Made by a program: the position numbers and the translations under genes
Notes under the pieces: model-generated
Databases searched by the model: none
What the model was told of the DNA's origin: nothing
Seen by the model: only the letters and a program-made list of their open reading frames with translations
Sequence record: MK327947.1
Length of the DNA stretch: 64,000 bases
Strand: one strand, 5' to 3'
Source of the DNA: Escherichia phage vB_EcoM_G5211
In this document: positions 1 through 60,272 of the stretch, one piece after another
Layout: every line of letters starts with the position of its first letter
Numbering within the stretch: position 1 is the first letter of the stretch

Positions 1-37
1 AAATTTTTATTATTCTAAAGATCTTTCTTCGTTTTGG
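1..37. repeat. Copy of a ~25-50 bp intergenic repeat (tctaaagatctttcttcgttttg); other copies at 35926-35976 and 36083-36126
   Basis: Exact 23-mer shared with 36089-36111; 5' part (aaatttttattattc) shared with 35926-35940. Confidence 0.6.
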
Positions 38-106
38 TTATGTTTTAACCAATAACTATATTTTTATACAGTAATAAATAAAACGGGTACTATACGAGGA
101 CTTCTT

Positions 107-361
107 ATGACAGAAGACATTTTGTTAAAACTCTATGATCGTTTGGATAACGAATTAGCAACATTGCGGGGTGAAGTTCTCTATTTGTCTAAATGCAATA
201 CAGATCTGCTTAAGCAGATTGCAGAAAGGGATGATCAAATAAAATCCCTTTCAGGTGCATTACGTGATCGCGACAAGGCATTAGAGATTTTACAGCGTGT
301 TACCAATAAGGAAGAATTAAAAGACTTCTTACATGGTTATGCTCATGCTATCGATCTATAA
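107..361 (+). CDS. Hypothetical small protein (84 aa), charged, predicted coiled-coil
   Basis: ORF with RBS-like gagga upstream; heptad-like charged sequence; convergent with gene 2 and sharing the hairpin at 369-385. Confidence 0.45.
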   Translation: MTEDILLKLYDRLDNELATLRGEVLYLSKCNTDLLKQIAERDDQIKSLSGALRDRDKALEILQRVTNKEELKDFLHGYAHAIDL

Positions 362-33968: not shown

Positions 33969-35210
33969 ATGACTCATATTTTTACTGAACTGTTGCGGGA
34001 ATCTACTTCCTCAGTAGCTAACCAGACAGCGCGACCGCAACTATTATCATTAACTCGCGCGGTAAACAACCTGATTTTCTCTGATCTGGTAGCAATCCAG
34101 CCAACGGATCAACCAGTATCTGCATTGTACGGCCTACGTTATCTTAATCGTGATGGTCAGATGACTTTCCGAACTGCTGCGACCTACGGTGGCGCGGCTG
34201 GTGATCGCACAGAGATTGAAGAGTTTTCAAAAGAAAAATCTTATGACGAAGGCGCACTGTTCAAATCAGGCGATGTTGTATACGAAGTTGTGACCGCTGG
34301 TACAGTCGGTGAAGATGCCGAAACTCCAGAATCTGCAATCTTTAAAGGCGTAATGACAAACAAAATTCGTTTCTATAGCGATTGTGCATCGGTAGAATAC
34401 TTTGAAGATAAAAACACCGAAATTGCGTCTACCTCTATGCAGTTTGACAAGTGGCAAGTTAATGTAGGTTCTCGTAAACTGAAAACCTCGTTCACCACTG
34501 AATTAATGCAGGATCTTGAGGCAAGCCAAATCAACTCTGAAAACTCTGTAATTGATCTTCTGGCTACTGTTGCTTCCGAAGAGATCAACAAAGATATTAT
34601 TCAGAAGTTGATCACTGTATCATCTCGCTATAAAATTAAAGGGATCACCCCTGATGGCGTACTTTCTCTCGTTAGCGTTCAGGATGCACCAACACAATCG
34701 CGTGAACTTTACCGCTATGCTTGCGAGATGAGCAATCAAATGTTGCGGACTTCCTCCTTTGCTGGTACATACGTTTTGGCGTCTTCTCGCGTGGTTGGCC
34801 TCCTGCAATCATCCGGTTGGATGGAAGAAACCGACAATGCTCTAAGCGAAGGTCGTCTACGTTGCGGTCTGGAAGTGTACGCAGACACGACAACACCTTT
34901 CGATTATATGCTCGTTGGTTGTAAGCACATGATCGGTGATATGGAGAGTGTCGGTTCTCTGTTCTACTCCCCATATACAGAAGCCGACGGCGCTGGCGCG
35001 TATAAGAGCGTAATTGACCCTAATAGCTTCCAGCATCATGTAGCTATTATGAATCGTTATTCACTCTCTGTCAACCCATACACATCAAAAGTTGATCAGG
35101 AAGAACACCAGGTCATCAAGGGTGACGATTGGGGTAAAATGGCTGGACGTTCAGAAATGTCCTACATTTTAGGAATCGAACTGCCACCACTTGAGATTGA
35201 CAACGCTTAA
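33969..35210 (+). CDS. 24: gp24 capsid vertex protein
   Basis: N-terminus ELLRESTSS...ARPQLLSLTRA parallels T4 gp24; ATG at 33969 preferred over TTG at 33921. Confidence 0.85.
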   Translation: MTHIFTELLRESTSSVANQTARPQLLSLTRAVNNLIFSDLVAIQPTDQPVSALYGLRYLNRDGQMTFRTAATYGGAAGDRTEIEEFSKEKSYDEGALFKSGDVVYEVVTAGTVGEDAETPESAIFKGVMTNKIRFYSDCASVEYFEDKNTEIASTSMQFDKWQVNVGSRKLKTSFTTELMQDLEASQINSENSVIDLLATVASEEINKDIIQKLITVSSRYKIKGITPDGVLSLVSVQDAPTQSRELYRYACEMSNQMLRTSSFAGTYVLASSRVVGLLQSSGWMEETDNALSEGRLRCGLEVYADTTTPFDYMLVGCKHMIGDMESVGSLFYSPYTEADGAGAYKSVIDPNSFQHHVAIMNRYSLSVNPYTSKVDQEEHQVIKGDDWGKMAGRSEMSYILGIELPPLEIDNA

Positions 35211-35798
35211 CTAAATATCTAACCAAGACAAGTCAGATCCGCCAAAGATTTTTTCGACGGCGGATCTATTTTCTTGATGATATAAGTTAAAACATGGTAT
35301 CCCATGTCTACGGGCAACATAAACAGCAATTCTAGTTCCTCCCGAAACGATTCCATTAACTTCTTTCGCCCAAAATATCACACAATCTACAGGGTCATCA
35401 AGTGTCTCACCTAAGACTTGAGCAACATTTCTAGAAAACAGATTTTGCATGTATAACGGTATAGAACGAGGATTATCATAAACGTGTTCTAATTCATCCA
35501 TCGCCAGATTTTTTTGTTCTAAGGTTTGCCATGCAATCACATCATGACCGTTATGCTTGTGGTCATAAAACTTCCAATTTGGAATGAAAATTTTTCTATA
35601 ATCTGGATCGTAATACTTCATGAAAGCATTGTCCATACCGTAAGCCCCTCCAGAATGCGCTACAACGCGATTTTCTGACAATACCCTCCCAATGGTACTA
35701 GCCATTATCAAAATGTCGCTAGGCGCTTTTCTAGAGCCTATTAAAGCACATCTACGAAGTGGTTTTACTCCAAATAGATCTTGTAACTGGTCAAACAT
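35211..35798 (-). CDS. DprA/Smf-like (SLOG superfamily) Rossmann-fold protein
   Basis: Motifs LIGSRKAPSD, VVAHSGGAYGMDNAF and FSRNVAQVLG resemble DprA core; 195 aa; occupies T4 rnlB position. Confidence 0.5.
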   Translation of the reverse strand: MFDQLQDLFGVKPLRRCALIGSRKAPSDILIMASTIGRVLSENRVVAHSGGAYGMDNAFMKYYDPDYRKIFIPNWKFYDHKHNGHDVIAWQTLEQKNLAMDELEHVYDNPRSIPLYMQNLFSRNVAQVLGETLDDPVDCVIFWAKEVNGIVSGGTRIAVYVARRHGIPCFNLYHQENRSAVEKIFGGSDLSWLDI

Positions 35799-35925
35799 AA
35801 TATTTCCTCCATAGAAAGCAATATCATACTACAAGTTAATAACAAATACAAGTATCCGCGTAGCGGAAGCGAGCACAGCGAGCAATAAAAACACTTCCAG
35901 TAATTGATTAATAAATGTTCGAAAC

Positions 35926-35976
35926 AAATTTTTATTATTCTATAAGATAAGTCTTCGTTTTGATCATAATTTAATC
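35926..35976. repeat. Intergenic repeat copy A (aaatttttattattc...cttcgttttgatcataatttaatca)
   Basis: 25-mer cttcgttttgatcataatttaatca identical to 36102-36126; 5' 15-mer identical to window positions 1-15. Confidence 0.6.
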
Positions 35977-36082
35977 ACACATGTAAAAACTACACAAAAG
36001 GATATCGCTTCGCGAACTCCTACGGAGTATAACATTTGTGTTACAATATGTAGTGATTAATAATTAACCAAAGATACATTTT

Positions 36083-36126
36083 CTATGTTCTAAAGATCTT
36101 TCTTCGTTTTGATCATAATTTAATCA
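36083..36126. repeat. Intergenic repeat copy B (tctaaagatctttcttcgttttgatcataatttaatca)
   Basis: Shares a 23-mer with window 14-36 and a 25-mer with copy A. Confidence 0.6.
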
Positions 36127-36180
36127 AACAGTATTAATATTGTGCACATGTAAACTAAAATTATGTTAATAACATATACA

Positions 36181-36205
36181 AAAAAAGCCGCCCCGAAGGA
36201 CGGCT
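36181..36205 (-). terminator. Rho-independent terminator (minus strand)
   Basis: A-run then hairpin agccgcc-ccgaagg-acggct, i.e. hairpin + U-run on minus strand; near-identical copy at 37335-37360. Confidence 0.6.
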
Positions 36206-36213
36206 AATGTTAA

Positions 36214-36651
36214 TTATTTGTTGATAACGATCTGATTTCGGCGAATGGTAACATTACTCTTAGAGATGATCAGATCATCCGGCACTACGTTAGTTTTGTA
36301 TGGTTGGAAGCGAACAAGCATCTGATTGCGTTTAGACCCTTCCTTAATCTTGATTTCCATCTGGATATTGTTGCCTACGTGAGCAACCGCAATTTCACCT
36401 TTATTCTCATAGACCCACTTGCTGGTAACGTCTCCAGCAAAAGCCTTAATAACTTGCAATGCTTCGTCGTATGCGGTAGAGCTGTGAACTTTCAGAAGGC
36501 CAGCCGTAGCAAGACGGGAGCAGGTGATCGCCGGAGATTGCCAAACATCAACATTAATTTGCTCAATCAGAGTAACACCGCCCTGATCAACTGCTTTGAA
36601 TGCTTCGAACATTGCCTTTTTCATTGCTACGTGGTTTTTACGGAATTTCAT
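36214..36651 (-). CDS. Hypothetical protein (145 aa)
   Basis: ORF with terminator downstream. Confidence 0.45.
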   Translation of the reverse strand: MKFRKNHVAMKKAMFEAFKAVDQGGVTLIEQINVDVWQSPAITCSRLATAGLLKVHSSTAYDEALQVIKAFAGDVTSKWVYENKGEIAVAHVGNNIQMEIKIKEGSKRNQMLVRFQPYKTNVVPDDLIISKSNVTIRRNQIVINK

Positions 36652-36697
36652 AATTAGTCACCTCTATTGATTAGTTATTCAGAATATTAATTACAAA

Positions 36698-36973
36698 TCA
36701 GGACATTGCCCGTTTGAATGCGTCCATTATAACAGTGTTATTTGGCTTGTCAACACGTTTTTGAACTTTATTTTTAAATTTTTTGTTGATGTGGTGTTTA
36801 CGATAAACAACCTTTTCACGGTTGGCGTAAGCCTCGCGTGCATCTTTTACCATCAACCATGCCTTAGCCGCATCTTGTCCGCTGATCCCGCCAATCTTTT
36901 TAGCAATATCAACAAAATTAAGACCGTGGTCTTCTCGTAGCATGTAAACCATTAACGCTGTTTTCTTGTCCAT
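36698..36973 (-). CDS. Hypothetical protein (91 aa from internal ATG of the 127-aa ORF)
   Basis: ATG at 36973 overlaps the stop of the upstream ORF (ATGA), suggesting translational coupling; longer ORF 36698-37081 is the alternative. Confidence 0.4.
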   Translation of the reverse strand: MDKKTALMVYMLREDHGLNFVDIAKKIGGISGQDAAKAWLMVKDAREAYANREKVVYRKHHINKKFKNKVQKRVDKPNNTVIMDAFKRAMS

Positions 36974-37170
36974 CACTTCGCCCCATTGACGATTAACAGG
37001 ATAGTGATCAGCACCGGAAACTGGATCATGATAGTGCCAATAAACCGGATAAACGCATTTTCTGACTTCCACACATGACATGCGACTAGCTGATATACCA
37101 TTGTTGCCACCAAAGCCAGAAAATACATCTCGATTGGTGTTTCTTTGATCAATCGTACAATCTCATTCAT
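36973..37170 (-). CDS. Small hydrophobic (probable membrane) protein, 65 aa
   Basis: Hydrophobic stretch FLALVATMVYQLVA and C-terminal FPVLITILLIV; preceded by strong promoter. Confidence 0.4.
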   Translation of the reverse strand: MNEIVRLIKETPIEMYFLALVATMVYQLVACHVWKSENAFIRFIGTIMIQFPVLITILLIVNGAK

Positions 37171-37297
37171 ACTTCACCTCATACATTCATAAACACAACA
37201 ACGAATAATACAGTAACAGTTATCAACGCCATTTTCAACCCCACATTCATAATATTTTCTTCGCCTCACTATGGACAGTAGCATGTCGATGTGTGCC

Positions 37298-37325
37298 ATT
37301 ATAGGCATCTAAATCGCTCTGTCAA
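37298..37325 (-). promoter_or_regulatory. Sigma70-type promoter on minus strand (TTGACA, 16 nt, TATAAT)
   Basis: Reverse complement of tgtcaa at 37320-37325 and attata at 37298-37303. Confidence 0.6.
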
Positions 37326-37334
37326 GCACAAAAA

Positions 37335-37360
37335 CAAAAAAGCCACCCCGAAGGATGGCT
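37335..37360 (-). terminator. Rho-independent terminator after hoc (minus strand)
   Basis: A-run + hairpin agccacc-ccgaagg-atggct; paralog of 36181 terminator. Confidence 0.6.
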
Positions 37361-37371
37361 GATATATTTCA

Positions 37372-38586
37372 TTAAGCAGGATGCATTTCACGAATGCGTA
37401 GAACTCGCTCTAACGTCTCTCGGTCCAGTTTATGTAACTCTTTGGAATGATACATGAAACCATTGCGAGATTCCATGCAAGTGCAATCACTATATTTTTC
37501 TTCCGCTGCCGCGATTGTCTCCAGATCTTTGGCGTACTTGCTGGTTGAATAAACTTCTCGATCACGCCACTCTAACCCAGCCTCATTGAATTTAACAATC
37601 TCGTCAAATACCCACCATCCAATGTAGATAAATGAAGTTTTGCGCCACGGGATCGGGTGTACGTAACGAAACATTTTAACAACTTCCATTGAACATTTTC
37701 GGCTTGTACTTGCTGCAACTTCTACTGTTTCATCTTCGATCTGTTGATATAGTTTAGCAACACACCAGAATTTGGCTGTGTCATCGTAAGTAGCACTCTC
37801 TTTGAACAGATGACCGTCTGGCATGATAGAAAATCCTTCCAGTGCTTCGCCGGCCTCACTACCGATTAGAGTCGGTGACGGTTGCCCTTCGCGCTGCAAA
37901 TACCAGTTATATTTGATCGTCAAATTAGGCATACCGCTAGAATCGCCTACAATGTCCTCTGACACAACATAATTAAGTGATATCTCATTACCTAGTGCCA
38001 CGGTCTTTGATTCCACCACATCCTGATCTACGTTCATTGTTGCCAGCATGATTTTAGTCGATGCGCTAGCGGCTGAATCTTCCGACTCACCCCACACTTT
38101 TACAGTATACAAGCCGTTTTTATCTGCTGTAAATTCTCGGATTGTAATATCCTGTTTTGTGTCTATAACGTCTTCGCCCTTACTCCAACTATAATGTAGT
38201 TCATAGTCGTCTGCTGGAGTCTTCCCACCAGAAAATTTTACTGTTGCATGTAATTCTACGTCTTTTTGTGATGATACGTAAAAATGCTGCGGTTCGGTGA
38301 TATTTACGATTAATTCAGCTTCTTCCATGAGGAAAACTTCAGATTCTACTGATTCCGTCGTATCGGTATCTTGTACCGTTACTTTATAGCTACCCGCATT
38401 TTCACTTGTTGCGTCTGCTACAGTTAGCGTAGCTGTGTTATTTTCATGCGGTTGGTCGTCTTTTGTCCATGTATATGTCAAATTGCTGGGTAATGGTTCG
38501 TCACCCGCTACAGTCGCCGTTAAGGTGAAACCATCTCCAGCAAGAAAACATCTTTTGTTAGATTGTATTGATACTGTGAAAGCCAT
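37372..38586 (-). CDS. hoc: Hoc-like outer capsid decoration protein with Ig-like repeats
   Basis: 404 aa; repeated Ig-like segments (YTWTKDD...TLTV...NAGSYKVTV; HYSWSKGE...YTVKVWG); position as in T4. Confidence 0.75.
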   Translation of the reverse strand: MAFTVSIQSNKRCFLAGDGFTLTATVAGDEPLPSNLTYTWTKDDQPHENNTATLTVADATSENAGSYKVTVQDTDTTESVESEVFLMEEAELIVNITEPQHFYVSSQKDVELHATVKFSGGKTPADDYELHYSWSKGEDVIDTKQDITIREFTADKNGLYTVKVWGESEDSAASASTKIMLATMNVDQDVVESKTVALGNEISLNYVVSEDIVGDSSGMPNLTIKYNWYLQREGQPSPTLIGSEAGEALEGFSIMPDGHLFKESATYDDTAKFWCVAKLYQQIEDETVEVAASTSRKCSMEVVKMFRYVHPIPWRKTSFIYIGWWVFDEIVKFNEAGLEWRDREVYSTSKYAKDLETIAAAEEKYSDCTCMESRNGFMYHSKELHKLDRETLERVLRIREMHPA

Positions 38587-53612: not shown

Positions 53613-53825
53613 TTATAATGCACCATCGAGCAATTGCTCTAAGGTGTATCCTGAATAGTCTTTTTCAATCAGGATATATTTTCCTACTCGTTTAATACAA
53701 CCACGCATTTCAACGTATTCTGCGTAGTTGATGGTACGAGTTGTTCCATCTTCCAGTAATGCAGTACCGATTTCGTTAATGCGGTCATAAGTTACGTCGG
53801 TAATGATGATTTCGATGTTAGCCAT
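53613..53825 (-). CDS. Hypothetical early protein (70 aa)
   Basis: RBS aaggag; own promoter cassette upstream. Confidence 0.5.
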   Translation of the reverse strand: MANIEIIITDVTYDRINEIGTALLEDGTTRTINYAEYVEMRGCIKRVGKYILIEKDYSGYTLEQLLDGAL

Positions 53826-53861
53826 TTGATACTCCTTAGTAGTTCGTTTCGGTATGGGTGT

Positions 53862-53890
53862 ATTATGATATACACCCTCTGTTATGTCAA
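53862..53890 (-). promoter_or_regulatory. Early promoter cassette (TTGACA, 17 nt, CATAAT) on minus strand
   Basis: One of nine near-identical cassettes: -35, -10, conserved leader with RBS. Confidence 0.65.
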
Positions 53891-53896
53891 CAACTT

Positions 53897-54076
53897 TTAG
53901 AACATTTTTGAAATTAATTCTGCTTTGATTTCGCAGAGAACATCTAAAGATTTCTCGTCACCCGCTTTTGCTGCTTCTGCTTGCATTTTTGAAATGGCTT
54001 CAATGTCAGTGCAATTATAAGCCGCTTGAACTTTAGCGATTGCGATGATTGCCGATTCGATGGTTAAGTGTTTCAT
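53897..54076 (-). CDS. Hypothetical early protein (59 aa)
   Basis: ORF MKHLTIESAI... with RBS ggagaatc and promoter; below ORF-track cutoff. Confidence 0.4.
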   Translation of the reverse strand: MKHLTIESAIIAIAKVQAAYNCTDIEAISKMQAEAAKAGDEKSLDVLCEIKAELISKMF

Positions 54077-54108
54077 GTTTGATTCTCCTTTCGTTTCGGT
54101 ATGTGTGC

Positions 54109-54138
54109 ATTATAGGGGATCTCCGACCCCCCTGTCAA
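54109..54138 (-). promoter_or_regulatory. Early promoter cassette (TTGACA, 18 nt, TATAAT) with GATC palindrome in spacer
   Basis: tgtcaa at 54133-54138, attata at 54109-54114; spacer ggggatctccgacccccc. Confidence 0.65.
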
Positions 54139-54145
54139 CAACTTT

Positions 54146-54664
54146 TTAGTTATTTTTTAATTGCTCATCTTGCAATAGGGCAATCACATGCTGGCGATGT
54201 TCTTCCGATTGAGGAACACCGAAAAAGTTTGTTTTGTAGAAATACTCTAATCGGTCTTCTCGTGTGCTCTCTTCCATCATGATCGCGGGTAGTCCGAGAT
54301 TTCGGAAACGTCGCTTTTCTGCTGGCGTAAAATCACTGTAATACAACATAGAATCATCATTACCAGCAATGCTAAACTCATCATTCATGAAGGAGAATAT
54401 TGCGTTTAAACGCTGTTTACCGTCCACGATTTCGATCTCATAGCGAGAGCCATCATCAATCTTAGCCATTGCGATAGCACCAACCGGAAAATCATTAATC
54501 AGGTTTTCGATAAACATACGTTTGTTTTCGGTGTCCCATACCAAAGGACGCTGATAATCTGGGTTCATGTTGATATAGCCATCTTCTAACCATGCATCAT
54601 AAACAGAGATGACAAAGTTTTTAGTATTGGTATAGTAACGGCGTTTAGGCGTTAAACGGTTCAT
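54146..54664 (-). CDS. DUF262 / ParB-like nuclease-domain protein (DGQQR-type motif)
   Basis: PDYQRPLVWD and IVDGKQRLNAI motifs; ATG at 54664 immediately follows upstream stop (alternative start 54700); about 172 aa. Confidence 0.6.
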   Translation of the reverse strand: MNRLTPKRRYYTNTKNFVISVYDAWLEDGYINMNPDYQRPLVWDTENKRMFIENLINDFPVGAIAMAKIDDGSRYEIEIVDGKQRLNAIFSFMNDEFSIAGNDDSMLYYSDFTPAEKRRFRNLGLPAIMMEESTREDRLEYFYKTNFFGVPQSEEHRQHVIALLQDEQLKNN

Positions 54665-54665
54665 G

Positions 54666-54995
54666 TTATAGTCTCCTGAATGGATCATCACGTAAATCAA
54701 TATCTTTTAAGAACTCATCCCATGAATGGCGGATATTGTTCTTAATTCTCCAGATAAGCGCAGGGATTGAACGCTCTCCCATCTGGAAGTAAGGATCATA
54801 TGATCCGTATGCCCAATATGCTACTACAATTCCACAGTCAGCGCAATAGTATTCTATTTCACTTGCTGGCGACCAAAGTCCATCAATATGATCAGTGATC
54901 TTGCTTTCGATGTTATGACTATGACAATCAGGGCAACGGATGCAATGACCTTGTTTATCGTAATTTGACGTTAGAGAATACTTAAACAATCTCAT
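54666..54995 (-). CDS. Cys-rich zinc-ribbon protein (109 aa)
   Basis: CIRCPDC and CADCG Cys pairs; start overlaps upstream stop (TAATG). Confidence 0.5.
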   Translation of the reverse strand: MRLFKYSLTSNYDKQGHCIRCPDCHSHNIESKITDHIDGLWSPASEIEYYCADCGIVVAYWAYGSYDPYFQMGERSIPALIWRIKNNIRHSWDEFLKDIDLRDDPFRRL

Positions 54996-55711
54996 TATAG
55001 ATCCTTATTGGCTTCAAATACTGCCTTTGCGAATCCTCGCGGGGTAAGTGACCTGATAGTCTTTGTTCTGGTTCCTTTCCCGCCTAGCTTAGAATGCTGT
55101 TTACTGTACCCTTTATTAATCTGCAACGGTTTCTTTTCTGGCATTATAAAGCCTTGTCCGGTCCATAAGCAAGTCTTTTTCGGGTACATATCACGGGCGG
55201 CAATATACTCAGGAAACGTAGGATGCTTATCATCTTCCGGCAAATAACCGCCATATTCCCACGGATGGAACATGTAATCAGGCTTACGCCACATACTAGA
55301 GATAACGCTTACAGGATTCTCTATCATGTAGGGAACTCCTAGCCATTCACCCAAATAAGCGGTTATTTTAGCTGTCCGTACATCATGAACTTGAATCAAT
55401 GGTCCTTGTTCTCGTTTCTTTCGTTCAAAGTGTGCAGCGCCACTAACAGCTAAATTGGTGCACGGTGGGAATGCAAAGATAATATCCGGTTTCCCCCATT
55501 CAAGGTCCATTGCTCTTTCCAGCCAGTTCAAATCAATCCAGGTGTTTACATAAGTAATGTTTGGATGTTCAAATCTGGTATTATACTTTTTGTATGTACC
55601 GTGGTCGGCGTCATCCGCATTAAAGCAGACTACCTTATGACCTGCTTTAGCCCATTCTAGCCCCATTATCCCCGATCCGTCAAAGTTGCAGAATATTAAT
55701 TTTTGTTTCAT
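54995..55711 (-). CDS. Compact DNA cytosine-5 methyltransferase-like protein
   Basis: Motif I-like FDGSGIMG, motif IV PC (FAFPPCTN), motif VI-like IENPV, C-terminal RSLTPRGFAKAV; 238 aa, short for a canonical C5-MTase. Confidence 0.5.
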   Translation of the reverse strand: MKQKLIFCNFDGSGIMGLEWAKAGHKVVCFNADDADHGTYKKYNTRFEHPNITYVNTWIDLNWLERAMDLEWGKPDIIFAFPPCTNLAVSGAAHFERKKREQGPLIQVHDVRTAKITAYLGEWLGVPYMIENPVSVISSMWRKPDYMFHPWEYGGYLPEDDKHPTFPEYIAARDMYPKKTCLWTGQGFIMPEKKPLQINKGYSKQHSKLGGKGTRTKTIRSLTPRGFAKAVFEANKDL

Positions 55712-55949
55712 ATACCACCCTTTAACCCAGCACAGATTTTAGTCGGTTCTTTACCGTGCCACATTAAGTAAAGTCCGTTAATGCGACCTTGTTTTGTGTG
55801 TGATTCTTTTCTAATCTTCTTATAGTGTCGTGCTTCCTCAACTTATTGTTTAGAATACCAATCATAAAGGAAGAGGCACAAAGGCCAACCATTAGCGGCC
55901 TTAATGCAGTTATTAAGAAATTCCTTATTGCGTTTAATTAATTTTCTTT

Positions 55950-56201
55950 TCACGCTACCCCCATTGGTTTGATAGTAACAGAATCTAAAAGACCTTTGTT
56001 AGCCAGTTCGCGGCAAGTTTTCAGATCCGCAACTTCCCAGCCAGCCGCAATCAGGTTATCAATCAGGCTGTTAGCAACTTCTTCGCTCATGAAAGAGCAC
56101 TGTTTGCCGATGGTGTAGCGCACACGCTGTAATTTCAGTTTACGGAAGCCTTTAACGTTCAGGTCTTTAGCGATTTTCTTTGCGGTTTCGATGTTAGCCA
56201 T
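55950..56201 (-). CDS. Hypothetical early protein (83 aa)
   Basis: ORF with promoter cassette upstream. Confidence 0.5.
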   Translation of the reverse strand: MANIETAKKIAKDLNVKGFRKLKLQRVRYTIGKQCSFMSEEVANSLIDNLIAAGWEVADLKTCRELANKGLLDSVTIKPMGVA

Positions 56202-56241
56202 TGTTTGATTCTCCTAAGTGGTATCTCGTCTTGATGGTTGT

Positions 56242-56270
56242 ATTGTAGGGGAGTTATCCTCCCCTGTCAA
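56242..56270 (-). promoter_or_regulatory. Early promoter cassette (TTGACA, 17 nt, TACAAT) with palindromic spacer
   Basis: Spacer ggggagttatcctcccc is an inverted repeat. Confidence 0.6.
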
Positions 56271-56284
56271 CACTTTTTATAAAA

Positions 56285-56452
56285 TTATTTGTTAATTTCT
56301 GGTGCGTTGCTAGGATAGTAACCTTCTTTAACTCCGAGGTATTTCGCAACCATCCCTACAATCTTCTGTGCTACTACAATGTCAAATTTCAGATAATCTT
56401 CGCCGTGGGTTTCAATGATATATGCTTCACATGCTGCTTTAGTCTCGAACAT
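56285..56452 (-). CDS. Small protein (55 aa), paralog of 59551-59718
   Basis: MFETKAACEAYIIETHGEDYLKFDIVVAQK...; 48/55 residues identical to the second copy. Confidence 0.55.
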   Translation of the reverse strand: MFETKAACEAYIIETHGEDYLKFDIVVAQKIVGMVAKYLGVKEGYYPSNAPEINK

Positions 56453-56485
56453 TTTGATTCTCCTATTTCGTTTCGGTATGTGTGT

Positions 56486-56514
56486 AGTATAGGGGATCTC
56501 CCGATCCCCGTCAA
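56486..56514 (-). promoter_or_regulatory. Early promoter cassette (TTGACG, 17 nt, TATACT) with GATC palindrome
   Basis: Spacer gggatcgggagatcccc; conserved leader and RBS. Confidence 0.6.
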
Positions 56515-56528
56515 CAACTTTTTTAAAA

Positions 56529-56810
56529 TTATTCGTGATTAGTTTCGATATTGTGCATTTTGCACCAGTTCAGCCAATCGCCCAGATCTTTATAGTTGAT
56601 GCTTTTATCTGCTGCCATCGTTTTTGTCTTGATACCCATATGTGCGTTATGAGTAAGCATTTTTACAGTGAACTCAATTTTATCGCCTTTAGCTTTAACA
56701 TCAACCAGTTTGGTCCACTGGCTACCAGCGCCGCGAATGTTCATACCAACGATGTTTCCGATGTATGCTTCTTTGTTTTTCAGGATTTCGGTTGCTTTGA
56801 TGAATTTCAT
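56529..56810 (-). CDS. Hypothetical early protein (93 aa)
   Basis: ORF with promoter cassette upstream. Confidence 0.5.
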   Translation of the reverse strand: MKFIKATEILKNKEAYIGNIVGMNIRGAGSQWTKLVDVKAKGDKIEFTVKMLTHNAHMGIKTKTMAADKSINYKDLGDWLNWCKMHNIETNHE

Positions 56811-56843
56811 TTTTGATTCTCCAGTTCGTTTCGGTATGGGTGT

Positions 56844-56872
56844 ATTATGCTATGTTCTTACTTTGGTGTCAA
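56844..56872 (-). promoter_or_regulatory. Early promoter cassette (TTGACA, 17 nt, CATAAT)
   Basis: tgtcaa 56867-56872 and attatg 56844-56849 on plus strand. Confidence 0.65.
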
Positions 56873-56880
56873 CAACTTTT

Positions 56881-57150
56881 TTAGATATTTTCAGAAATAA
56901 ATTTTAAAACTTGACGTAAATGTTTCTCATCTTTGATAGTCGCCGGAAGTTCTTCTTTTACTTCCTGTGCAAGATAGATATTTCCGTTCCAAGTGAAAGA
57001 TCCGTCTTTGTTTACGCGATAGCTGAACATCCACTCGCAATCATTTTCGATTTCATATACACACAGAAGGGTGTAATCGTTAAAGCTATTGATTTCAAGG
57101 TCGAAGCCGTGACGTTTTGCAAAGTTGGTAGTGGTTTTAGTCAGTGCCAT
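56881..57150 (-). CDS. Hypothetical early protein (89 aa)
   Basis: ORF with promoter cassette upstream. Confidence 0.5.
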   Translation of the reverse strand: MALTKTTTNFAKRHGFDLEINSFNDYTLLCVYEIENDCEWMFSYRVNKDGSFTWNGNIYLAQEVKEELPATIKDEKHLRQVLKFISENI

Positions 57151-57190
57151 TGTTTGATTCTCCTAAGTGGTATCTCGTTTCGATGGGTGT

Positions 57191-57219
57191 ATTATGCTAT
57201 AGGCTAGATCAGGTGTCAA
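57191..57219 (-). promoter_or_regulatory. Early promoter cassette (TTGACA, 17 nt, CATAAT)
   Basis: tgtcaa 57214-57219 and attatg 57191-57196. Confidence 0.65.
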
Positions 57220-57242
57220 CAACTTTTTTAATTTTTTGGAAA

Positions 57243-57270
57243 TAAAAAAAGCCGACACTAAGGTCGGCTA
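57243..57270 (-). terminator. Rho-independent terminator (minus strand)
   Basis: A7 + hairpin gccgac-actaag-gtcggc. Confidence 0.6.
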
Positions 57271-57276
57271 ATAAAA

Positions 57277-57585
57277 TCATTTAGACAAATAATCATTCTG
57301 TGCAATCCGGTCGGCGTATGCTGGTGTTATGTCAATCGCCAGCACTTTAACGCGTGCTTTCTTGCGACCTGTGTTTTCTCGTAACCAGTGCTCATGACCG
57401 TGAACATTTTTATACTGCGATGCTTCTTCGAAGGTACGGATCGGACCTGGATAATCTGCGTAAAGGATCTCTAGGTCTTCGGTGATGTAAAAATATACAT
57501 CATAATTACTGTTCTCTAGTTTAAGCAGAGACTTTCGGAACATTGGGAGATTTTCGCGGGTAAATTCAAAGATATTATCTTTCAT
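57277..57585 (-). CDS. Small protein of the H-x-H-W paralog family (102 aa)
   Basis: YDVYFYITEDLEILYADY...HGHEHW...VKVLAIDI; paralogs at 58005, 58298, 59016. Confidence 0.55.
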   Translation of the reverse strand: MKDNIFEFTRENLPMFRKSLLKLENSNYDVYFYITEDLEILYADYPGPIRTFEEASQYKNVHGHEHWLRENTGRKKARVKVLAIDITPAYADRIAQNDYLSK

Positions 57586-57609
57586 AGTATTATCCTCAAT
57601 AGTTGGATG

Positions 57610-57630
57610 AAAAGGGGGCTTAACGCCCCC
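57610..57630 (-). terminator. Rho-independent terminator (minus strand)
   Basis: A-run + hairpin gggggc-ttaa-cgccccc; same motif as 53588. Confidence 0.6.
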
Positions 57631-57635
57631 ATATA

Positions 57636-57923
57636 TTAAAACAGACCTTCCTGTACACCGTAGTAGAGTTCATCGCTGATAATTTCATTAATGCGACGGT
57701 GTGCATATTCCTGATTTGCGAAGTTGTCAGCAAGTTCTACTTTAGTTTCGCCGTCATGAGTCCATTTAGTGATAACTTTACCATCTGCAAATTTGAAGTT
57801 GAACTCTTTAGCTACCGCATCGCGTACCAGACGTGCAAACTTATTGTTGCGGATTGCATTGTCGGTTTCGTGTGCAGCGTGAGCGAATTTGTTAACTTTC
57901 AGAGTGATAGTAATGTATGCCAT
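57636..57923 (-). CDS. Hypothetical early protein (95 aa)
   Basis: ORF with promoter cassette upstream and terminator downstream. Confidence 0.5.
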   Translation of the reverse strand: MAYITITLKVNKFAHAAHETDNAIRNNKFARLVRDAVAKEFNFKFADGKVITKWTHDGETKVELADNFANQEYAHRRINEIISDELYYGVQEGLF

Positions 57924-57969
57924 AATTTGATTCTCCTAGTTAGAAAGTGTATCTCGTTTCGATGGGTGT

Positions 57970-57998
57970 ATTATGCTATACACCCAACCTCATGTCAA
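57970..57998 (-). promoter_or_regulatory. Early promoter cassette (TTGACA, 17 nt, CATAAT)
   Basis: tgtcaa 57993-57998 and attatg 57970-57975. Confidence 0.65.
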
Positions 57999-58004
57999 CA
58001 CTTT

Positions 58005-58283
58005 TTATAAAATAATTTTTTGATATTTTTCTATGATGTTCGTGTAATTCACATCAACCGCTAGCACCGTTGCTTCGAATCCACCGTTTAGCCAATGGCT
58101 ATGATCGTGATCGTGAAAGAAACCTAGACCAGTACGAAGACCTTCTTTATATTCGGCGCGTACATTTAGATCATCATCGATAAACAGATAAAACCATGAA
58201 TTTTTACTAGGATTGATGATACAACCTTTCAGATTCGGGAGAATATCACGACTAAGAATAAACTTATCACCTACTTTGAACAT
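58005..58283 (-). CDS. Small protein of the H-x-H-W paralog family (92 aa)
   Basis: SWFYLFIDDDLNVRAEY...HDHDHSHW...TVLAVDV. Confidence 0.55.
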   Translation of the reverse strand: MFKVGDKFILSRDILPNLKGCIINPSKNSWFYLFIDDDLNVRAEYKEGLRTGLGFFHDHDHSHWLNGGFEATVLAVDVNYTNIIEKYQKIIL

Positions 58284-58297
58284 AATATTTTCCTCAC

Positions 58298-58606
58298 TTA
58301 TAAAGTTTGACCGTTGTTTTTCGCATAATGCTTAATGCGTGCTTGATCTGCTTCCGCTGGTGATAGATTCCATGCAACCACTACAACTTCTGACGCATCG
58401 TCATCCGTTTCTGATACCCAATGGTTGTGATTCATACAGTTATTTGCTATCGAGTGAGCAAATGATTTCATCACTGGAGACGTATAATCATAGTAACGGA
58501 TTTTCAGATTTTCATCAACATACAAGTAGATCGTATAAGGTTTATATTCAGTAACCAGTAACAGACAGTTACGCAATTCTGGGAAAATCTTTTTAGTTAA
58601 TTTCAT
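58298..58606 (-). CDS. Small protein of the H-x-H-W paralog family (102 aa from ATG 58606)
   Basis: YTIYLYVDENLKIRYYDY...NHNHW...VVVVAWNL; ATG 58606 with RBS gagga, 1 nt after upstream stop. Confidence 0.5.
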   Translation of the reverse strand: MKLTKKIFPELRNCLLLVTEYKPYTIYLYVDENLKIRYYDYTSPVMKSFAHSIANNCMNHNHWVSETDDDASEVVVVAWNLSPAEADQARIKHYAKNNGQTL

Positions 58607-58607
58607 T

Positions 58608-58817
58608 TTATAATCCTCGGTCGCGGCTATAGTACACGGTACGCCATACAATTTCATGTTTCGTGTCGCTCCAGCACACGATCTCATTTACTCTTAAATC
58701 TTTGTTATCAACAAAAGATGAACATTGTGACGCTTCTTTCATCATTTTATCTGCTGTTTTCTCATCAAATACAGCACAGATTTCTTTATACACTCGATAA
58801 TCTTTAAACTTGCTCAT
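58608..58817 (-). CDS. Small protein, MSKFKDY family copy B (69 aa)
   Basis: MSKFKDYRVYKEICAVFDEKTADKMMKEASQC...; paralog of adjacent copy. Confidence 0.45.
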   Translation of the reverse strand: MSKFKDYRVYKEICAVFDEKTADKMMKEASQCSSFVDNKDLRVNEIVCWSDTKHEIVWRTVYYSRDRGL

Positions 58818-58819
58818 AA

Positions 58820-59035
58820 TTAACACCAATCAAGAGTTTTTGAGAAAACCTCTATCCATTGTTGAGTATATGCGGTTTCTTTCCATGATACAATACCAGT
58901 AGAATAATGGTTTTTGTTTCCAGAAAATGACGGGCATTTTGATGCATCTTCCATCATCTTTTCGGCGAACTCTGGTTCGTATACTCGCAAGATCTGTTGA
59001 TATGCTTTATAATCTTTAAATTTGCTCATAATCAT
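58820..59035 (-). CDS. Small protein, MSKFKDY family copy A (71 aa)
   Basis: MIMSKFKDYKAYQQILRVYEPEFAEKMMEDASKC...; tandem to copy B. Confidence 0.45.
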   Translation of the reverse strand: MIMSKFKDYKAYQQILRVYEPEFAEKMMEDASKCPSFSGNKNHYSTGIVSWKETAYTQQWIEVFSKTLDWC

Positions 59036-59294
59036 TCACTACCTTATCAGCTTCTTTTGTTGTTTTTACATCAACTGCGATAACCCGTAAAGGTTCGTCA
59101 TGGTTCCACCAATGATCGTGAATATCGGCTTGTGATTTATCACCAAAGGAATCACGAATATCATTTTTACTTTTATAGCTAATGTGACCGTCATAGTCAA
59201 CATAAAGGTAATTATCGAAAATCGGCGTTTTTAAGATCATGCCGAAAAATCTTTCTTTGTGTGTCTTATCCAGCGTTGCAGTAATTCGCATCAT
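59016..59294 (-). CDS. Small protein of the H-x-H-W paralog family (92 aa)
   Basis: NYLYVDYDGHISYKSKND...HDHWW...RVIAVDV. Confidence 0.55.
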   Translation of the reverse strand: MMRITATLDKTHKERFFGMILKTPIFDNYLYVDYDGHISYKSKNDIRDSFGDKSQADIHDHWWNHDEPLRVIAVDVKTTKEADKVVNDYEQI

Positions 59295-59306
59295 AATATA
59301 TTCCTC

Positions 59307-59486
59307 TTAGAAAGGGATGGTCATTTCTTGAGCTTGTACATTCTCGTTAGGATTAAACTTCATCCAACCAATATTGTCTACCAGCATATGCACATTTTTA
59401 TCATATCCTACGTGAGTAGTCAACACTAAATGTGATTTACCTTCAACGATGATTTCCATGTACTTCTGAACTTCGATAGCTTTCAT
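59307..59486 (-). CDS. Hypothetical early protein (59 aa)
   Basis: ORF MKAIEVQKYMEII... with RBS ggagaatc; below ORF-track cutoff. Confidence 0.4.
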   Translation of the reverse strand: MKAIEVQKYMEIIVEGKSHLVLTTHVGYDKNVHMLVDNIGWMKFNPNENVQAQEMTIPF

Positions 59487-59518
59487 TTTGATTCTCCGTT
59501 TGTTGTCTTGATGGGAGT

Positions 59519-59547
59519 ATCTTACTACTCCCTTTAATCATTGTCAA
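59519..59547 (-). promoter_or_regulatory. Early promoter cassette (TTGACA, 17 nt, TAAGAT)
   Basis: tgtcaa 59542-59547; weaker -10. Confidence 0.45.
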
Positions 59548-59550
59548 CTA

Positions 59551-59718
59551 TTATTTGTTAATTTCTGGTGCGTTGCTTGGATAGTAACCTTCTTTAACAC
59601 CCAGATATTTTGCAACCATTCCGGTGATCTTCTGTGCTACTACGATATCGAATTTCAGGTAGTCTTCACCGTGTTTTGCTACAATGTATGCTTCGCATTC
59701 TGCTTTAGTCTGGAACAT
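59551..59718 (-). CDS. Small protein (55 aa), paralog of 56285-56452
   Basis: MFQTKAECEAYIVAKHGEDYLKFDIVVAQK...; own promoter. Confidence 0.55.
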   Translation of the reverse strand: MFQTKAECEAYIVAKHGEDYLKFDIVVAQKITGMVAKYLGVKEGYYPSNAPEINK

Positions 59719-59752
59719 TTTTGATTCTCCTATATCTCGTTGGTATGTGTGT

Positions 59753-59782
59753 ATTATAGGGGATCTCCCGATCCCCTGTCAA
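59753..59782 (-). promoter_or_regulatory. Early promoter cassette (TTGACA, 18 nt, TATAAT) with GATC palindrome
   Basis: Spacer ggggatctcccgatcccc, identical to the 56492-56508 spacer core. Confidence 0.65.
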
Positions 59783-59795
59783 CAACTTTTTTGAA

Positions 59796-60272
59796 TTATT
59801 TTTCTTGATGCTCGCGCTCGTACTTTTCGAAATAAAATTCTACTGGCTGGTCATGAATTGACAGCAAGCCAAAGCGTTTAGCCGCTCGCAATCCCATATT
59901 GCGCTGAATGTACTTCTGGAAGTTCTCGCGTATACACTTACGCCAGTATTCTAAGCCCATACAGCTTTTATAAAGATTGCATTGTACACACGCCGGATTC
60001 ATGTTATCAAGTATATCATGTTCCGGTTTATGCATTCCTACAACCTTATACTTCCACGACCCATCATCATTACGGGCAATTCGTCCATTTTCATCATAGA
60101 CTACCTTTGAGCGTCGCAATACTGGTTTGATATGGTCTGCGTGCCAGCGATCCCCTAGTTCCTCGCCACAATAGGCACAACGCCCACCGTATTTCATTTT
60201 CAGGATCTGGCGTTGCTCTTTCTTTGACAATTTTTTAGGTTTAGGGGCTTTCGCCCCTTCATTATCACACAT
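59796..60272 (-). CDS. HNH endonuclease (possible homing endonuclease)
   Basis: CAYCGE...HADHIKPV...N...CVQCN: Cys pair-HNH-Cys pair architecture; 158 aa; overlaps ligase stop. Confidence 0.7.
   Translation of the reverse strand: MCDNEGAKAPKPKKLSKKEQRQILKMKYGGRCAYCGEELGDRWHADHIKPVLRRSKVVYDENGRIARNDDGSWKYKVVGMHKPEHDILDNMNPACVQCNLYKSCMGLEYWRKCIRENFQKYIQRNMGLRAAKRFGLLSIHDQPVEFYFEKYEREHQEK

What the first reader, a model, noticed from the sequence alone, without database searches (positions are those of the whole stretch)
35926..36126. Short intergenic repeat present three times (two in the 24-hoc region, one at the window start)
The element cttcgttttgatcataatttaatca occurs at 35952-35976 and 36102-36126. 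Its upstream part (tctaaagatctttcttcgttttg / aaatttttattattc) recurs at window positions 1-37, about 36 kb away and upstream of the 84-aa ORF. It lies in AT-rich non-coding DNA and does not match the early-promoter cassettes or the late TATAAATA box. It could be a middle-mode promoter or activator site, a recombination hotspot, or a homing-endonuclease target remnant.
Basis: seen in the sequence. Interest (0 to 1): 0.45.

Follow-up and report, generated by a model that had tools for sequence, protein, structure and literature searches.

The report
Conserved hairpin module between phage genes
The short repeat is the best-conserved piece of a roughly 130-150-base hairpin-forming module that every RB49-like (Krischvirus) coliphage carries four times and that an unrelated family of E. 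coli prophages also carries; it is under clear selection, matches no described RNA family, and its function is still unknown.

Summary
The 25-mer is only the core of a longer unit. Read on the window's minus strand, the unit is a 73-nt imperfect hairpin (35905-35977, 36054-36126, and 1-51, cut by the window start), a linker, then two adjacent GC hairpins with 3-nt loops. Complete genomes hold a fourth copy between tail-fibre genes 35 and 36. All 58 Krischvirus records have about four copies, and no other phage record matched. A homologous single copy lies in the control region of a prophage found in 56-58 of 5,426 complete E. coli genomes. The hairpin is supported by compensatory changes: 9 pairs changed on both sides, reached by 0 of 500 shuffles. 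Across eight genomes the structured parts vary at 1 of 199 sites and the linkers at 19 of 132 (p=1.5e-7). Each unit points the same way as the next gene and follows a terminator. My best reading is a cis-acting structured RNA between transcription units; the mechanism is inferred. The MotA-type middle-promoter idea is not supported. There is no Rfam match and no mention in the PeSL papers I read.

The parts
36054..36126 (-). Unit B: 73-nt imperfect hairpin. From 5' to 3' on the minus strand: arm a (TGATTAA), 4-nt internal loop, arm b (TGATCAAAACGAAGA), 21-nt apical loop, arm b', 4-nt internal loop, arm a' (TTAATCA).
   Evidence: Covariance-model hit of 73.3 bits, E=1.3e-10, covering model positions 1-73. 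The isolated segment folds into this hairpin. Only 1 variable site among 8 genomes, and that site changes a U.G pair to U-A.
35905..35977 (-). Unit A: 73-nt imperfect hairpin, the tandem paralogue of unit B, 149 nt downstream on the minus strand.
   Evidence: Covariance-model hit of 68.4 bits, E=1.1e-9. No variable site among 8 genomes. Relative to the gene-3 and gene-36 copies it carries two compensatory pair changes, A-U to G-C and C-G to U-A.
1..51 (-). Unit 0: the first 51 of 73 nt of the hairpin; the rest lies outside the window. In complete genomes it is followed on the minus strand by two GC hairpins, a late-promoter-like AATAAATA and gene 3.
   Evidence: Covariance-model hit of 50.3 bits, covering model positions 1-51 of 73 and cut at the 3' end. 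The full copy is visible in L002 3019-3165.
36005..36028 (-). Unit B tandem GC hairpins with 3-nt loops. On the minus strand they read ACTCC-GTA-GGAGT, then TCGC-GAA-GCGA.
   Evidence: Read directly from the sequence. Tandem hairpins of this kind occur only 3 times in the whole 168-kb G2494 genome, each time inside a unit. No variable site among 8 genomes.
35855..35883 (-). Unit A GC hairpin region: TCCGC-TAC-GCGGA (35855-35867, minus strand) followed by a T-rich tract, and upstream of it on that strand a degenerate partner at 35869-35883.
   Evidence: Flagged as terminator-like on the minus strand. No variable site among 8 genomes.
36186..36205 (-). Intrinsic terminator of the upstream gene (ORF165 homologue, 36214-36651, minus strand); unit B begins 59 nt downstream of it.
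   Evidence: Terminator scan: 8 pairs, loop of 4, followed by TTTTTTT. Annotated as a terminator in MK327935.1.
35211..35798 (-). Downstream gene served by units B and A: the ORF164 homologue, a DprA-like protein.
   Evidence: ORF list. RefSeq product name 'DprA-like DNA recombination-mediator protein'. Weak Pfam PF02481 match, E=8.7e-5, below the curated cut-off.
107..361 (+). 84-aa ORF on the opposite strand to unit 0. It lies between gene 2's terminator (about 362-391) and unit 0. This is context, not part of the unit.
   Evidence: ORF list. Matches phrog_17832, function unknown. Annotated in MK327935.1.

Best explanation
Each copy is a modular, hairpin-forming element of about 130-150 nt. 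Read on the strand of the flanking genes (the window's minus strand), it has three parts. First comes a 73-nt A/U-rich imperfect hairpin: a 7-bp outer stem, a 4x4 internal loop, an inner stem of up to 15 bp, and a 21-nt apical loop whose 5' half is nearly invariant (...ATCTT(T)AGAAT). Then comes a variable linker of about 25-45 nt. Last come two adjacent GC hairpins with 3-nt loops; the last one is followed by a T-rich tract in three of the four Krischvirus copies. I think it acts as RNA, in cis, in transcripts that run from the upstream gene past its terminator towards the next gene. It would be an intercistronic control element that decides what happens to read-through RNA: processing at the double-stranded hairpin, pausing or termination at the GC hairpins, or the reverse, protection from termination. 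It most likely spread among E. coli phages by recombination. What is shown: the anatomy, the copy number and distribution, the base-pairing constraint, and purifying selection. What is inferred: that the active form is RNA rather than single-stranded DNA, and any particular molecular mechanism.
For: Copy number and distribution: a whole-genome HMM and a covariance model find exactly four copies per Krischvirus genome and nothing else. All 58 Krischvirus records give 231 places. IMG/VR and metagenome scans add only Krischvirus and one E. coli prophage family. That prophage occurs in 56-58 of 5,426 complete E. coli genomes, with one copy each. Base pairing: on 26 variants, 83.2% of cells are paired, against 29-51% with slid partners. 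Nine pairs changed on both sides and there are 20 extra pair types; 0 of 500 shuffles reach either value. The isolated 73-mer folds into this hairpin in 19 of 20 variants. Two divergent prophage alleles replace the hairpin interior but keep it complementary, one as 12 consecutive Watson-Crick pairs. Polymorphism: among 10 genomes of the gene-36 copy, stem changes preserve or improve pairing (A-U to G.U, A.C to G-C, G.U to G-C, U.G to U-A), while loops vary freely. Selection: in the 24-hoc gap of 8 genomes the structured parts vary at 1 of 199 sites and the linkers at 19 of 132, Fisher p=1.5e-7. The GC hairpins keep their shape with unrelated sequences in different lineages (GTGCC-TAC-GGCAC, CTCC-GTA-GGAG, GCAACC-GAA-GGTTGC, GACGCTC-CCT-GAGCGTC). 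Phage Sf20 flips one loop from TAC to GTA. Strand: every Krischvirus copy points the same way as the next gene (gene 3, ORF164, gene 36) and lies downstream of an intrinsic terminator. G.U pairs number 39 on this strand, against 10 A.C cells that would be G.U on the other strand, and one G.U pair is kept in 23 of 26 variants.
Against: RNAalifold on the same alignment returns only the 5-bp mini-hairpin, with -1.1 kcal/mol, and not the long hairpin. The hairpin is weak, -7 to -13 kcal/mol in most variants, and folds about equally well on the opposite strand, so the strand call rests on modest G.U statistics. The alignment used for the counts was hand-registered: N was placed at four indels, two of them chosen as a paired deletion, which leans towards the structure. 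The variants represent only about five or six independent lineages. In the gene-36 copy and in copy B a strong terminator lies 12-59 nt upstream with no room for a promoter, so the RNA exists only if that terminator leaks. No transcript data were available. Sequence-level invariance of loops in copies A and B means structure alone does not explain the constraint.
Confidence: 0.4

Rival explanations
1. It is a sigma-70-type, activator-dependent promoter with operators, a functional stand-in for T4 middle promoters. TAGAAT would be the -10 hexamer, a weak T..nCA hexamer 17 bp upstream the -35, and the inverted repeats would bind a dimeric regulator. It would produce either the mRNA of the next gene or a short RNA of about 60 nt ending at GC hairpin 2.
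For: TAGAAT is present in three of the four Krischvirus copies and in most prophage copies, and one prophage variant has TATAAT. A terminator lies upstream and a terminator-like hairpin downstream in the gene-36, gene-3 and A copies. ORF164 has no late promoter and needs some promoter. The RB49 group lacks the MotA system, so any middle-type control would have to be different.
Against: The scan finds no promoter-like site in any unit. The -35 matches only 3 of 6. Copy B has TAGAAC, losing the key T at -7, yet it is as strongly conserved as copy A. The hexamer is not kept in the two divergent prophage alleles, while hairpin complementarity is. The four paralogues within one genome have different arm sequences that co-vary between arms, which fits base pairing and not one sequence-specific dimeric protein. 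Four sites would be far too few for a middle-gene regulon.
Confidence: 0.15
2. It is a DNA-level element: a replication origin or priming signal. One version is an R-loop origin of the T4 oriF/oriG type, with a promoter followed by an A/T-rich unwinding element. Another is a hairpin extruded in single-stranded DNA that loads primase or helicase or is cut by a structure-specific nuclease.
For: Three to four sites per genome is an origin-like number. The stretch after TAGAAT is A/T-rich, followed by very stable C-GAA-G and GNA triloop hairpins on the strand that would be displaced; their exceptional stability as DNA mini-hairpins is from memory. In the prophage the unit lies about 400 bp from roughly nine iteron-like AACCTACACTA repeats. 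From memory, the three Krischvirus loci each lie within a few kb of the positions homologous to T4 oriE, oriF and oriG.
Against: Nothing here tests replication. The conserved G.U pairs are less natural in DNA. Consistent co-orientation with the local genes is not required of an origin. The prophage and the T4-like phage use unrelated replication machineries, so a shared origin module is unexpected.
Confidence: 0.12
3. It is a nut-like processive antitermination site. The single-stranded apical motif (G/T)ATCTT(T)AGAA would act as a boxA-like Nus-factor site, and the tandem GC hairpins as boxB-like partner sites, making RNA polymerase read through downstream terminators.
For: GATCTTTAGAA matches the gamma-proteobacterial boxA consensus GYTCTTTAANA (PMC5725501) at 9 of 11 positions, and ATCTT is the invariant core of the loop in every allele. 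In the prophage the unit lies downstream of a predicted leftward promoter and upstream of a terminator-like site, ahead of the leftward operon. This function would depend on host factors, so it could work in both a temperate and a virulent coliphage.
Against: The consensus is not met: A stands at the Y2 position in all alleles and G at A9. The source paper notes that a boxA-like site differing at a critical position is not bound. The GC hairpins have 3-nt loops, not the 5-nt boxB loop, and lie about 45 nt from the motif rather than about 10 (boxB geometry from memory). A 9-of-11 match in an A/T-rich loop is easily chance.
Confidence: 0.08
4. It has no function of its own: a remnant of duplication and recombination, or a selfish miniature repeat that hitch-hikes at gene borders.
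For: Unit borders coincide with mosaic junctions and with an HNH endonuclease insertion. The unit is shared between phages that demonstrably exchange DNA, including a 94%-identical 387-bp segment. One gene-36 copy carries the loop sequence of the gene-3 copy, suggesting conversion between copies.
Against: There is strong purifying selection relative to adjacent linkers (p=1.5e-7). About four copies are kept in all 58 genomes. Substitutions are compensatory. There are no target-site duplications, and no further copies in 5,426 E. coli genomes beyond one per prophage.
Confidence: 0.08

Closest known systems
PeSL cassettes (promoter-early stem-loops) of RB49/Phi1 (Arbiol et al. 2010, PMC2839356; Comeau et al. 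2014, PMC4122927)
   Same: Both are repeated composite intergenic modules of about 100 nt in the same phages. Both combine hairpins with transcription signals, sit at gene borders and are associated with modular exchange.
   Different: PeSLs have a near-consensus TTGACA-N17-TATAAT promoter and a G-run/loop/C-run stem, number in the dozens, and lie in the hyperplastic early regions (window 53.8-60 kb). This unit has no such promoter, has a 73-nt A/U-rich hairpin plus two triloop hairpins, occurs only four times, lies next to late or structural genes, and is not mentioned in the passages my term searches of either paper returned.
RNase III processing sites between genes of phage T7/T3 (from established knowledge; not tested here)
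   Same: Both are repeated, conserved intercistronic hairpins of about two helical turns interrupted by an internal loop, co-oriented with transcription. Here the hairpin has 7 + 15 bp around a 4x4 loop.
   Different: There is no sequence similarity and no cleavage data. The stem here is A/U-rich with several mismatches. The adjoining tandem GC hairpins have no T7 counterpart.
Lambda-type nut sites and rrn boxA (consensus GYTCTTTAANA, PMC5725501)
   Same: A single-stranded motif resembling boxA is followed by small GC hairpins, downstream of a promoter and upstream of terminators in the prophage.
   Different: The match is 9 of 11, with mismatches at Y2 and A9. The hairpin loops have 3 nt and the spacing is about 45 nt. 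No N-like protein was identified.
ERIC/IRU-type intergenic imperfect palindromes of enterobacteria (from established knowledge)
   Same: Both are imperfect palindromes of about 70-130 nt found in transcribed intergenic regions, conserved in sequence, of unclear function, and thought to affect mRNA fate.
   Different: This unit is not a chromosomal repeat family: there is one copy per prophage and none elsewhere in 5,426 E. coli genomes. It is unrelated in sequence.

Membership tests
T4 MotA-dependent middle promoter | MotA box (a/t)(a/t)(a/t)TGCTT(t/c)A centred near -30, placed 11-13 bp upstream of a TAnnnT -10 | tested here: not met
   No TGCTT motif on either strand of any unit, read directly from the sequences. 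Consensus as quoted in PMC1524935.
T4 MotA-dependent middle promoter | The phage encodes the activator MotA | not tested
   Not searched here. PMC1524935 reports that no motA orthologue and no middle-promoter consensus could be found for RB49.
PeSL early-promoter cassette | Near-consensus sigma-70 promoter (TTGACA-N17-TATAAT) with an upstream A/T tract | tested here: not met
   The promoter scan finds none inside the units on either strand. The best manual reading is 3 of 6 in the -35 with TAGAAT as the -10.
PeSL early-promoter cassette | G-run/loop/C-run stem-loop within the cassette | tested here: not met
   The unit's hairpins are a 73-nt A/U-rich hairpin and two mixed GC triloop hairpins. 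The true PeSL families lie at 53.8-60 kb.
T4-type late promoter | TATAAATA box 6-13 nt upstream of the transcript start | tested here: not met
   The box is absent from the unit itself. A perfect TATAAATA lies just downstream of the unit before gene 36, an AATAAATA before gene 3, and none before ORF164.
Any Rfam family | Covariance-model match at or near the gathering score | tested here: not met
   Searches at E<=1 of window 35500-36500 and of L085 8800-10500 gave only sub-threshold hits on the neighbouring terminator and none on the unit.
boxA/nut antitermination site | boxA consensus GYTCTTTAANA | tested here: not met
   GATCTTTAGAA matches 9 of 11, with A at Y2 in all alleles and G at A9.
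boxA/nut antitermination site | boxB hairpin (5-bp stem, 5-nt GNRA-like loop) about 10 nt after boxA, plus an N-type protein | tested here: not met
   The hairpins have 3-nt loops and lie about 45 nt away. No N-like protein came up in the PHROG or Pfam scans of the neighbouring genes. The boxB geometry is from memory.
Intrinsic (Rho-independent) terminator | GC-rich hairpin directly followed by a U tract | tested here: inconclusive
   The last GC hairpin is flagged as terminator-like in the gene-36, gene-3 and A copies. It is not flagged in copy B or in the prophage copy, and the stems have only 5 bp.
RNase III processing site | About 20-22 bp of double-stranded RNA, often with an internal loop, that is cleaved by RNase III | not testable with these tools
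   The geometry fits (7 + 15 bp around a 4x4 loop). Cleavage cannot be tested here.
MITE/ERIC-like mobile repeat | Many dispersed copies, terminal inverted repeats and target-site duplications | tested here: not met
   There is one copy per prophage and none elsewhere in E. coli genomes, and four fixed sites in Krischvirus. The flanks show no duplications.

The most novel reading that the evidence does not exclude
A host-factor-dependent RNA control module, nut-like or otherwise able to modify RNA polymerase or direct processing, is shared by a virulent T4-like genus and a temperate E. coli prophage family. If so, RB49-type phages, which lack the MotA middle mode, would gate expression of certain gene blocks (gene 3, gene 36, the DprA-like gene) through a structured RNA rather than a promoter class. 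The resident prophage and the invading phage could then cross-talk through the same element.
Probability: 0.1. Interest if true: 0.75.

Novelty: new variant of a known kind. Interest (0 to 1): 0.5.

Why it matters
How RB49-type phages time their genes without the MotA/AsiA middle mode has been open since their genomes were first read. A small set of strongly selected, structured intergenic modules next to late and recombination genes is a concrete, testable candidate for part of that control. The same module sits in the control region of an unstudied E. coli prophage family. That shows regulatory non-coding modules, not only genes, move between virulent and temperate coliphages. It also supplies a ready-made comparative data set: several alleles with compensatory changes. 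If the module turns out to be only a processing or insulating hairpin, it is still a new RNA motif worth a family entry.

Tried and rejected
1. Sigma-70 promoter in either orientation: the scans found nothing inside the units, and my manual -35 readings never exceeded 3 of 6.

2. Palindromic operator for a host or phage dimeric protein (6-N5-6 sites TGGTTA-N5-TAACCA): rejected as the main explanation. The arms differ among paralogues within one genome and co-vary with the distant arm b', whereas the local pairing a:b is broken in the prophage alleles.

3. Small ORFs: a 22-codon ORF next to the prophage copy is frame-shifted among variants, so it is not conserved.

4. More distant relatives: three IMG/VR pattern scans, one metagenome scan, one scan of GTDB representative genomes, and blastn against phages and plasmids. 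These gave only Krischvirus and one prophage family; all other pattern hits failed the HMM.

5. A weak HMM hit at window 56957-57041 lies inside a coding region, so I treat it as chance.

6. Proteins shared between the prophage and Krischvirus that might bind the unit: only an LprI-like gene and one small ORF are shared, and neither is adjacent to a unit.

7. PHROG and Pfam scans of the neighbouring prophage genes gave almost nothing; one protein resembles an Ant/Rha regulator.

8. Desplats et al. 2002 (PMC135041) could not be read. A broad literature search for Krischvirus transcript data returned nothing relevant.

9. RNAalifold did not reproduce the long hairpin. I keep this as a caveat.

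Full report
**What the window is.** The region 35000-37500 is 98-99.8% identical to 58 records of the RB49/Phi1/JSE group of T4-like coliphages, genus Krischvirus. The finding lies in a 415-bp gap between two minus-strand genes. One is the DprA-like ORF164 homologue (35211-35798). The other is the ORF165 homologue (36214-36651), whose intrinsic terminator is at 36186-36205.

**Checking the observation.** It gave no match in 100 shuffles. The 19-mer AAGATCTTTCTTCGTTTTG occurs at 18-36 and 36093-36111, and with three mismatches at 35944-35962. The copy at the window start is truncated by the window edge. In MK327935.1 its missing part lies in the gap between gene 3 (minus strand) and an 84-aa ORF (plus strand).

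**Copy number and distribution.**
- I rebuilt the 168-kb G2494 genome. An HMM of the three copies found a fourth copy at 153352-153438, on the other strand, between the terminator of tail-fibre gene 35 and gene 36.
- A blastn search with that copy hit all 58 Krischvirus-type records, with 231 places, about four per genome. It hit no other phage record.
- Pattern scans of IMG/VR, filtered with the HMM, found Krischvirus contigs and about 25 contigs of 17-45 kb that each carry one homologous unit (E about 1e-10).
- Those contigs are chromosomal prophages of E. coli, found in 56-58 of 5,426 complete genomes with one copy each. None are on plasmids, and none are in the phage collection.
- A scan of GTDB representative genomes found nothing.
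- A covariance model finds exactly the known copies and no others.

**Anatomy.** Read on the strand of the neighbouring genes (the window's minus strand), every Krischvirus copy has the same order:
- The terminator of the upstream gene. In the gene-3 copy it lies about 300 nt away, with the 84-aa ORF in between on the other strand.
- A 73-nt A/U-rich segment.
- A linker of 25-45 nt.
- Two adjacent GC hairpins with 3-nt loops.
- The next gene. A perfect TATAAATA late promoter precedes gene 36 and an AATAAATA precedes gene 3. Nothing of that kind precedes ORF164.

The gene-3 and gene-36 copies are about 90% identical over about 110 nt. Copies A and B in the window are diverged tandem units with a 149-nt period. 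Tandem triloop GC hairpins occur only three times in the whole G2494 genome, each time inside a unit.

**The 73-nt segment is a selected hairpin.**
- Folded alone, it forms one long hairpin in 19 of 20 variants: an outer stem a:a' of 7 bp, a 4x4 internal loop, an inner stem b:b' of up to 15 bp, and a 21-nt apical loop.
- On an ungapped alignment of 26 distinct variants, 83.2% of cells are paired, against 29-51% when the partners are slid. Nine pairs show changes on both sides and there are 20 additional pair types. None of 500 shuffles reached these values, and the slid controls gave 0-3 and 4-9 (for 20 variants).
- One pair (columns 13/61) occurs as C-G, A-U, G-C and G.U.
- Two divergent prophage alleles are the most telling. 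In strain 06-00048 the hairpin interior is replaced, yet it forms 12 consecutive Watson-Crick pairs. In EC416 one A-U pair is deleted on both sides and four further pairs are exchanged.
- Among ten genomes of the gene-36 copy, stem substitutions keep or improve pairing: A-U to G.U in SSG23, A.C to G-C in JSE, G.U to G-C in kaaroe, and U.G to U-A in several. Three of the four left internal-loop positions and the 3' half of the apical loop vary freely.
- A competing local hairpin (a with the start of b) pairs well in Krischvirus but is broken in the prophage alleles.

**Caveats on the structure.**
- RNAalifold on the same alignment returns only a 5-bp mini-hairpin.
- The hairpin is thermodynamically weak.
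- I placed the gaps by hand.
- The variants amount to only five or six independent lineages.

**Selection.** Across eight genomes, the two long hairpins and the GC hairpins of the 24-hoc gap have 1 variable site in 199; that one changes a wobble pair to Watson-Crick. The linkers and spacers between them have 19 in 132, Fisher p=1.5e-7. The GC hairpins keep their form with unrelated sequences in different lineages, and Sf20 has one loop flipped from TAC to GTA. A neutral remnant is therefore excluded.

**Which strand, and RNA or DNA.**
- All four Krischvirus copies are co-oriented with the gene that follows.
- G.U pairs number 39 on that strand, against 10 A.C cells that would be G.U on the other strand. 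One G.U pair is kept in 23 of 26 variants.
- This favours RNA in the sense of the local genes, but the folding energies of the two strands are similar.
- In two copies a strong terminator lies immediately upstream, so such RNA would have to come from read-through.
- I could find no transcript data for these phages.

**What it is not.**
- It is not a MotA-type middle promoter. There is no MotA box, and the RB49 group lacks MotA and any middle-promoter consensus.
- It is not a PeSL cassette. Those are the repeat families at 53.8-60 kb. They have a consensus sigma-70 promoter that the unit lacks. My term searches of the two PeSL papers turned up no mention of this element.
- The -10-like TAGAAT lies in the apical loop. 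It reads TAGAAC in the equally conserved copy B and is not kept in the divergent alleles.
- A single dimeric DNA-binding protein is unlikely, because paralogues in one genome have different arms that nevertheless stay complementary.
- It matches no Rfam family.
- It is not a dispersed mobile repeat.

**Most likely mechanism.** I commit to a cis-acting structured RNA placed between transcription units, which governs the fate of read-through transcripts. A helix of about 22 bp with an internal loop has the geometry of a double-strand-specific processing site. The last GC hairpin with its T tract is terminator-like in three copies. The nearly invariant loop motif ATCTT(T)AGAA implies recognition by a factor. 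That motif resembles boxA (GYTCTTTAANA) at 9 of 11 positions. The consensus is not met, so a nut-like role stays a minority reading. The structural claim is well supported. The RNA-level role is an inference, and the exact mechanism is open.

**Context in the prophage.** The prophage is inserted in hicB in strain DEC5A. The unit lies at the right end of a 1.27-kb ORF-free control region between divergent operons. That region also holds:
- two LexA-box-like sites;
- about nine AACCTACACTA repeats;
- further pairs of GC triloop hairpins;
- a second module of the same architecture but different sequence, on the opposite strand (L085 about 9815-9892).

The prophages and Krischvirus also share a 387-bp segment of an LprI-family gene at 94% identity, and identical 24-26-nt terminator hairpins. 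This shows ongoing DNA exchange between the two phage types. In one Krischvirus contig an HNH-AP2 endonuclease gene is inserted exactly beside GC hairpin 2 of the gene-3 copy, so unit borders are places where modules are exchanged.

**Verdict.** It leads to an apparently undescribed, selected, hairpin-forming intergenic module shared by virulent and temperate coliphages. Its kind, a structured intergenic regulatory repeat, is familiar. Its sequence, architecture and distribution are new, and its function needs experiments.

Noticed in passing
window 53800-60000 (for example 54075-54156, 56452-56533, 56810-56891, 59719-59800): There are dense families of about 80-nt repeats on the minus strand. 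Each combines TTGACA, a G/C stem-loop, a TATAAT-like hexamer, a conserved leader (CCGAAACGAA) and a ribosome-binding site. These are the published PeSL early-promoter cassettes. Their leader shares the short string (A/G)AAACGAA with arm b of the unit, which may be chance.
   Followed up: partly
L043 2148-2741 (IMG/VR contig 3300045988_033703, 150 kb): A 593-bp insertion carries a 177-aa HNH-AP2-type endonuclease gene with its own TTGACA promoter. It sits exactly between GC hairpin 2 of the gene-3 copy and gene 3, and is absent from G2494 and from the window's lineage.
   Followed up: partly
L085 5024-5885 versus MK327935.1 161911-162749 (outside the window): An LprI-family ('lysozyme inhibitor') gene at the left end of the E. 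coli prophage shares 94% nucleotide identity over 387 bp with a Krischvirus gene. This indicates recent gene exchange between a temperate and a virulent coliphage.
   Followed up: no
L085 9049-10322 (E. coli O55:H7 DEC5A prophage inserted in hicB): A 1.27-kb ORF-free control region holds two LexA-box-like sites (about 9150-9170 and 9235-9255), a near-consensus leftward promoter (9419-9391), about nine AACCTACACTA iteron-like repeats (9614-9740) and three sets of tandem GC triloop hairpins. Nearly all neighbouring prophage genes lack any family match.
   Followed up: partly
L085 9815-9892, plus strand: There is a second module with the same architecture as the unit (an imperfect hairpin with 19-nt arms, then ACGGC-GTA-GCCGT and GCGC-GAA-GCGC) but a different sequence. 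It faces the first module. Its folding z-score is only -1.4.
   Followed up: partly
L366 and L367 (E. coli EC416 and 06-00048): In these prophage alleles the hairpin interior is exchanged wholesale while the flanks stay at least 95% identical. This allelic-cassette pattern is reminiscent of specificity determinants in antisense-RNA systems.
   Followed up: partly
window 36180-36208, 37335-37363, 57244-57272: Near-identical terminator hairpins (AAAAAAGCC.CCCGAAGG..GGCT) recur behind unrelated genes. Identical 24-26-nt terminator hairpins are also shared between G2494 (58984-59011) and the prophages.
   Followed up: no
L374 (Shigella phage Sf20), gene 35/36 gap: GC hairpin 1 has its loop inverted (GTGCC-GTA-GGCAC instead of GTGCC-TAC-GGCAC). 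This is a hairpin flip that keeps the structure. Unit B of the window has the same flipped form.
   Followed up: no
window 1 to 35000 versus MK327935.1 63101-99848: G2494 is about 1.75 kb longer than the window over this stretch. Its annotation shows a group I intron endonuclease gene and a split large-terminase gene there, which may account for the difference.
   Followed up: no
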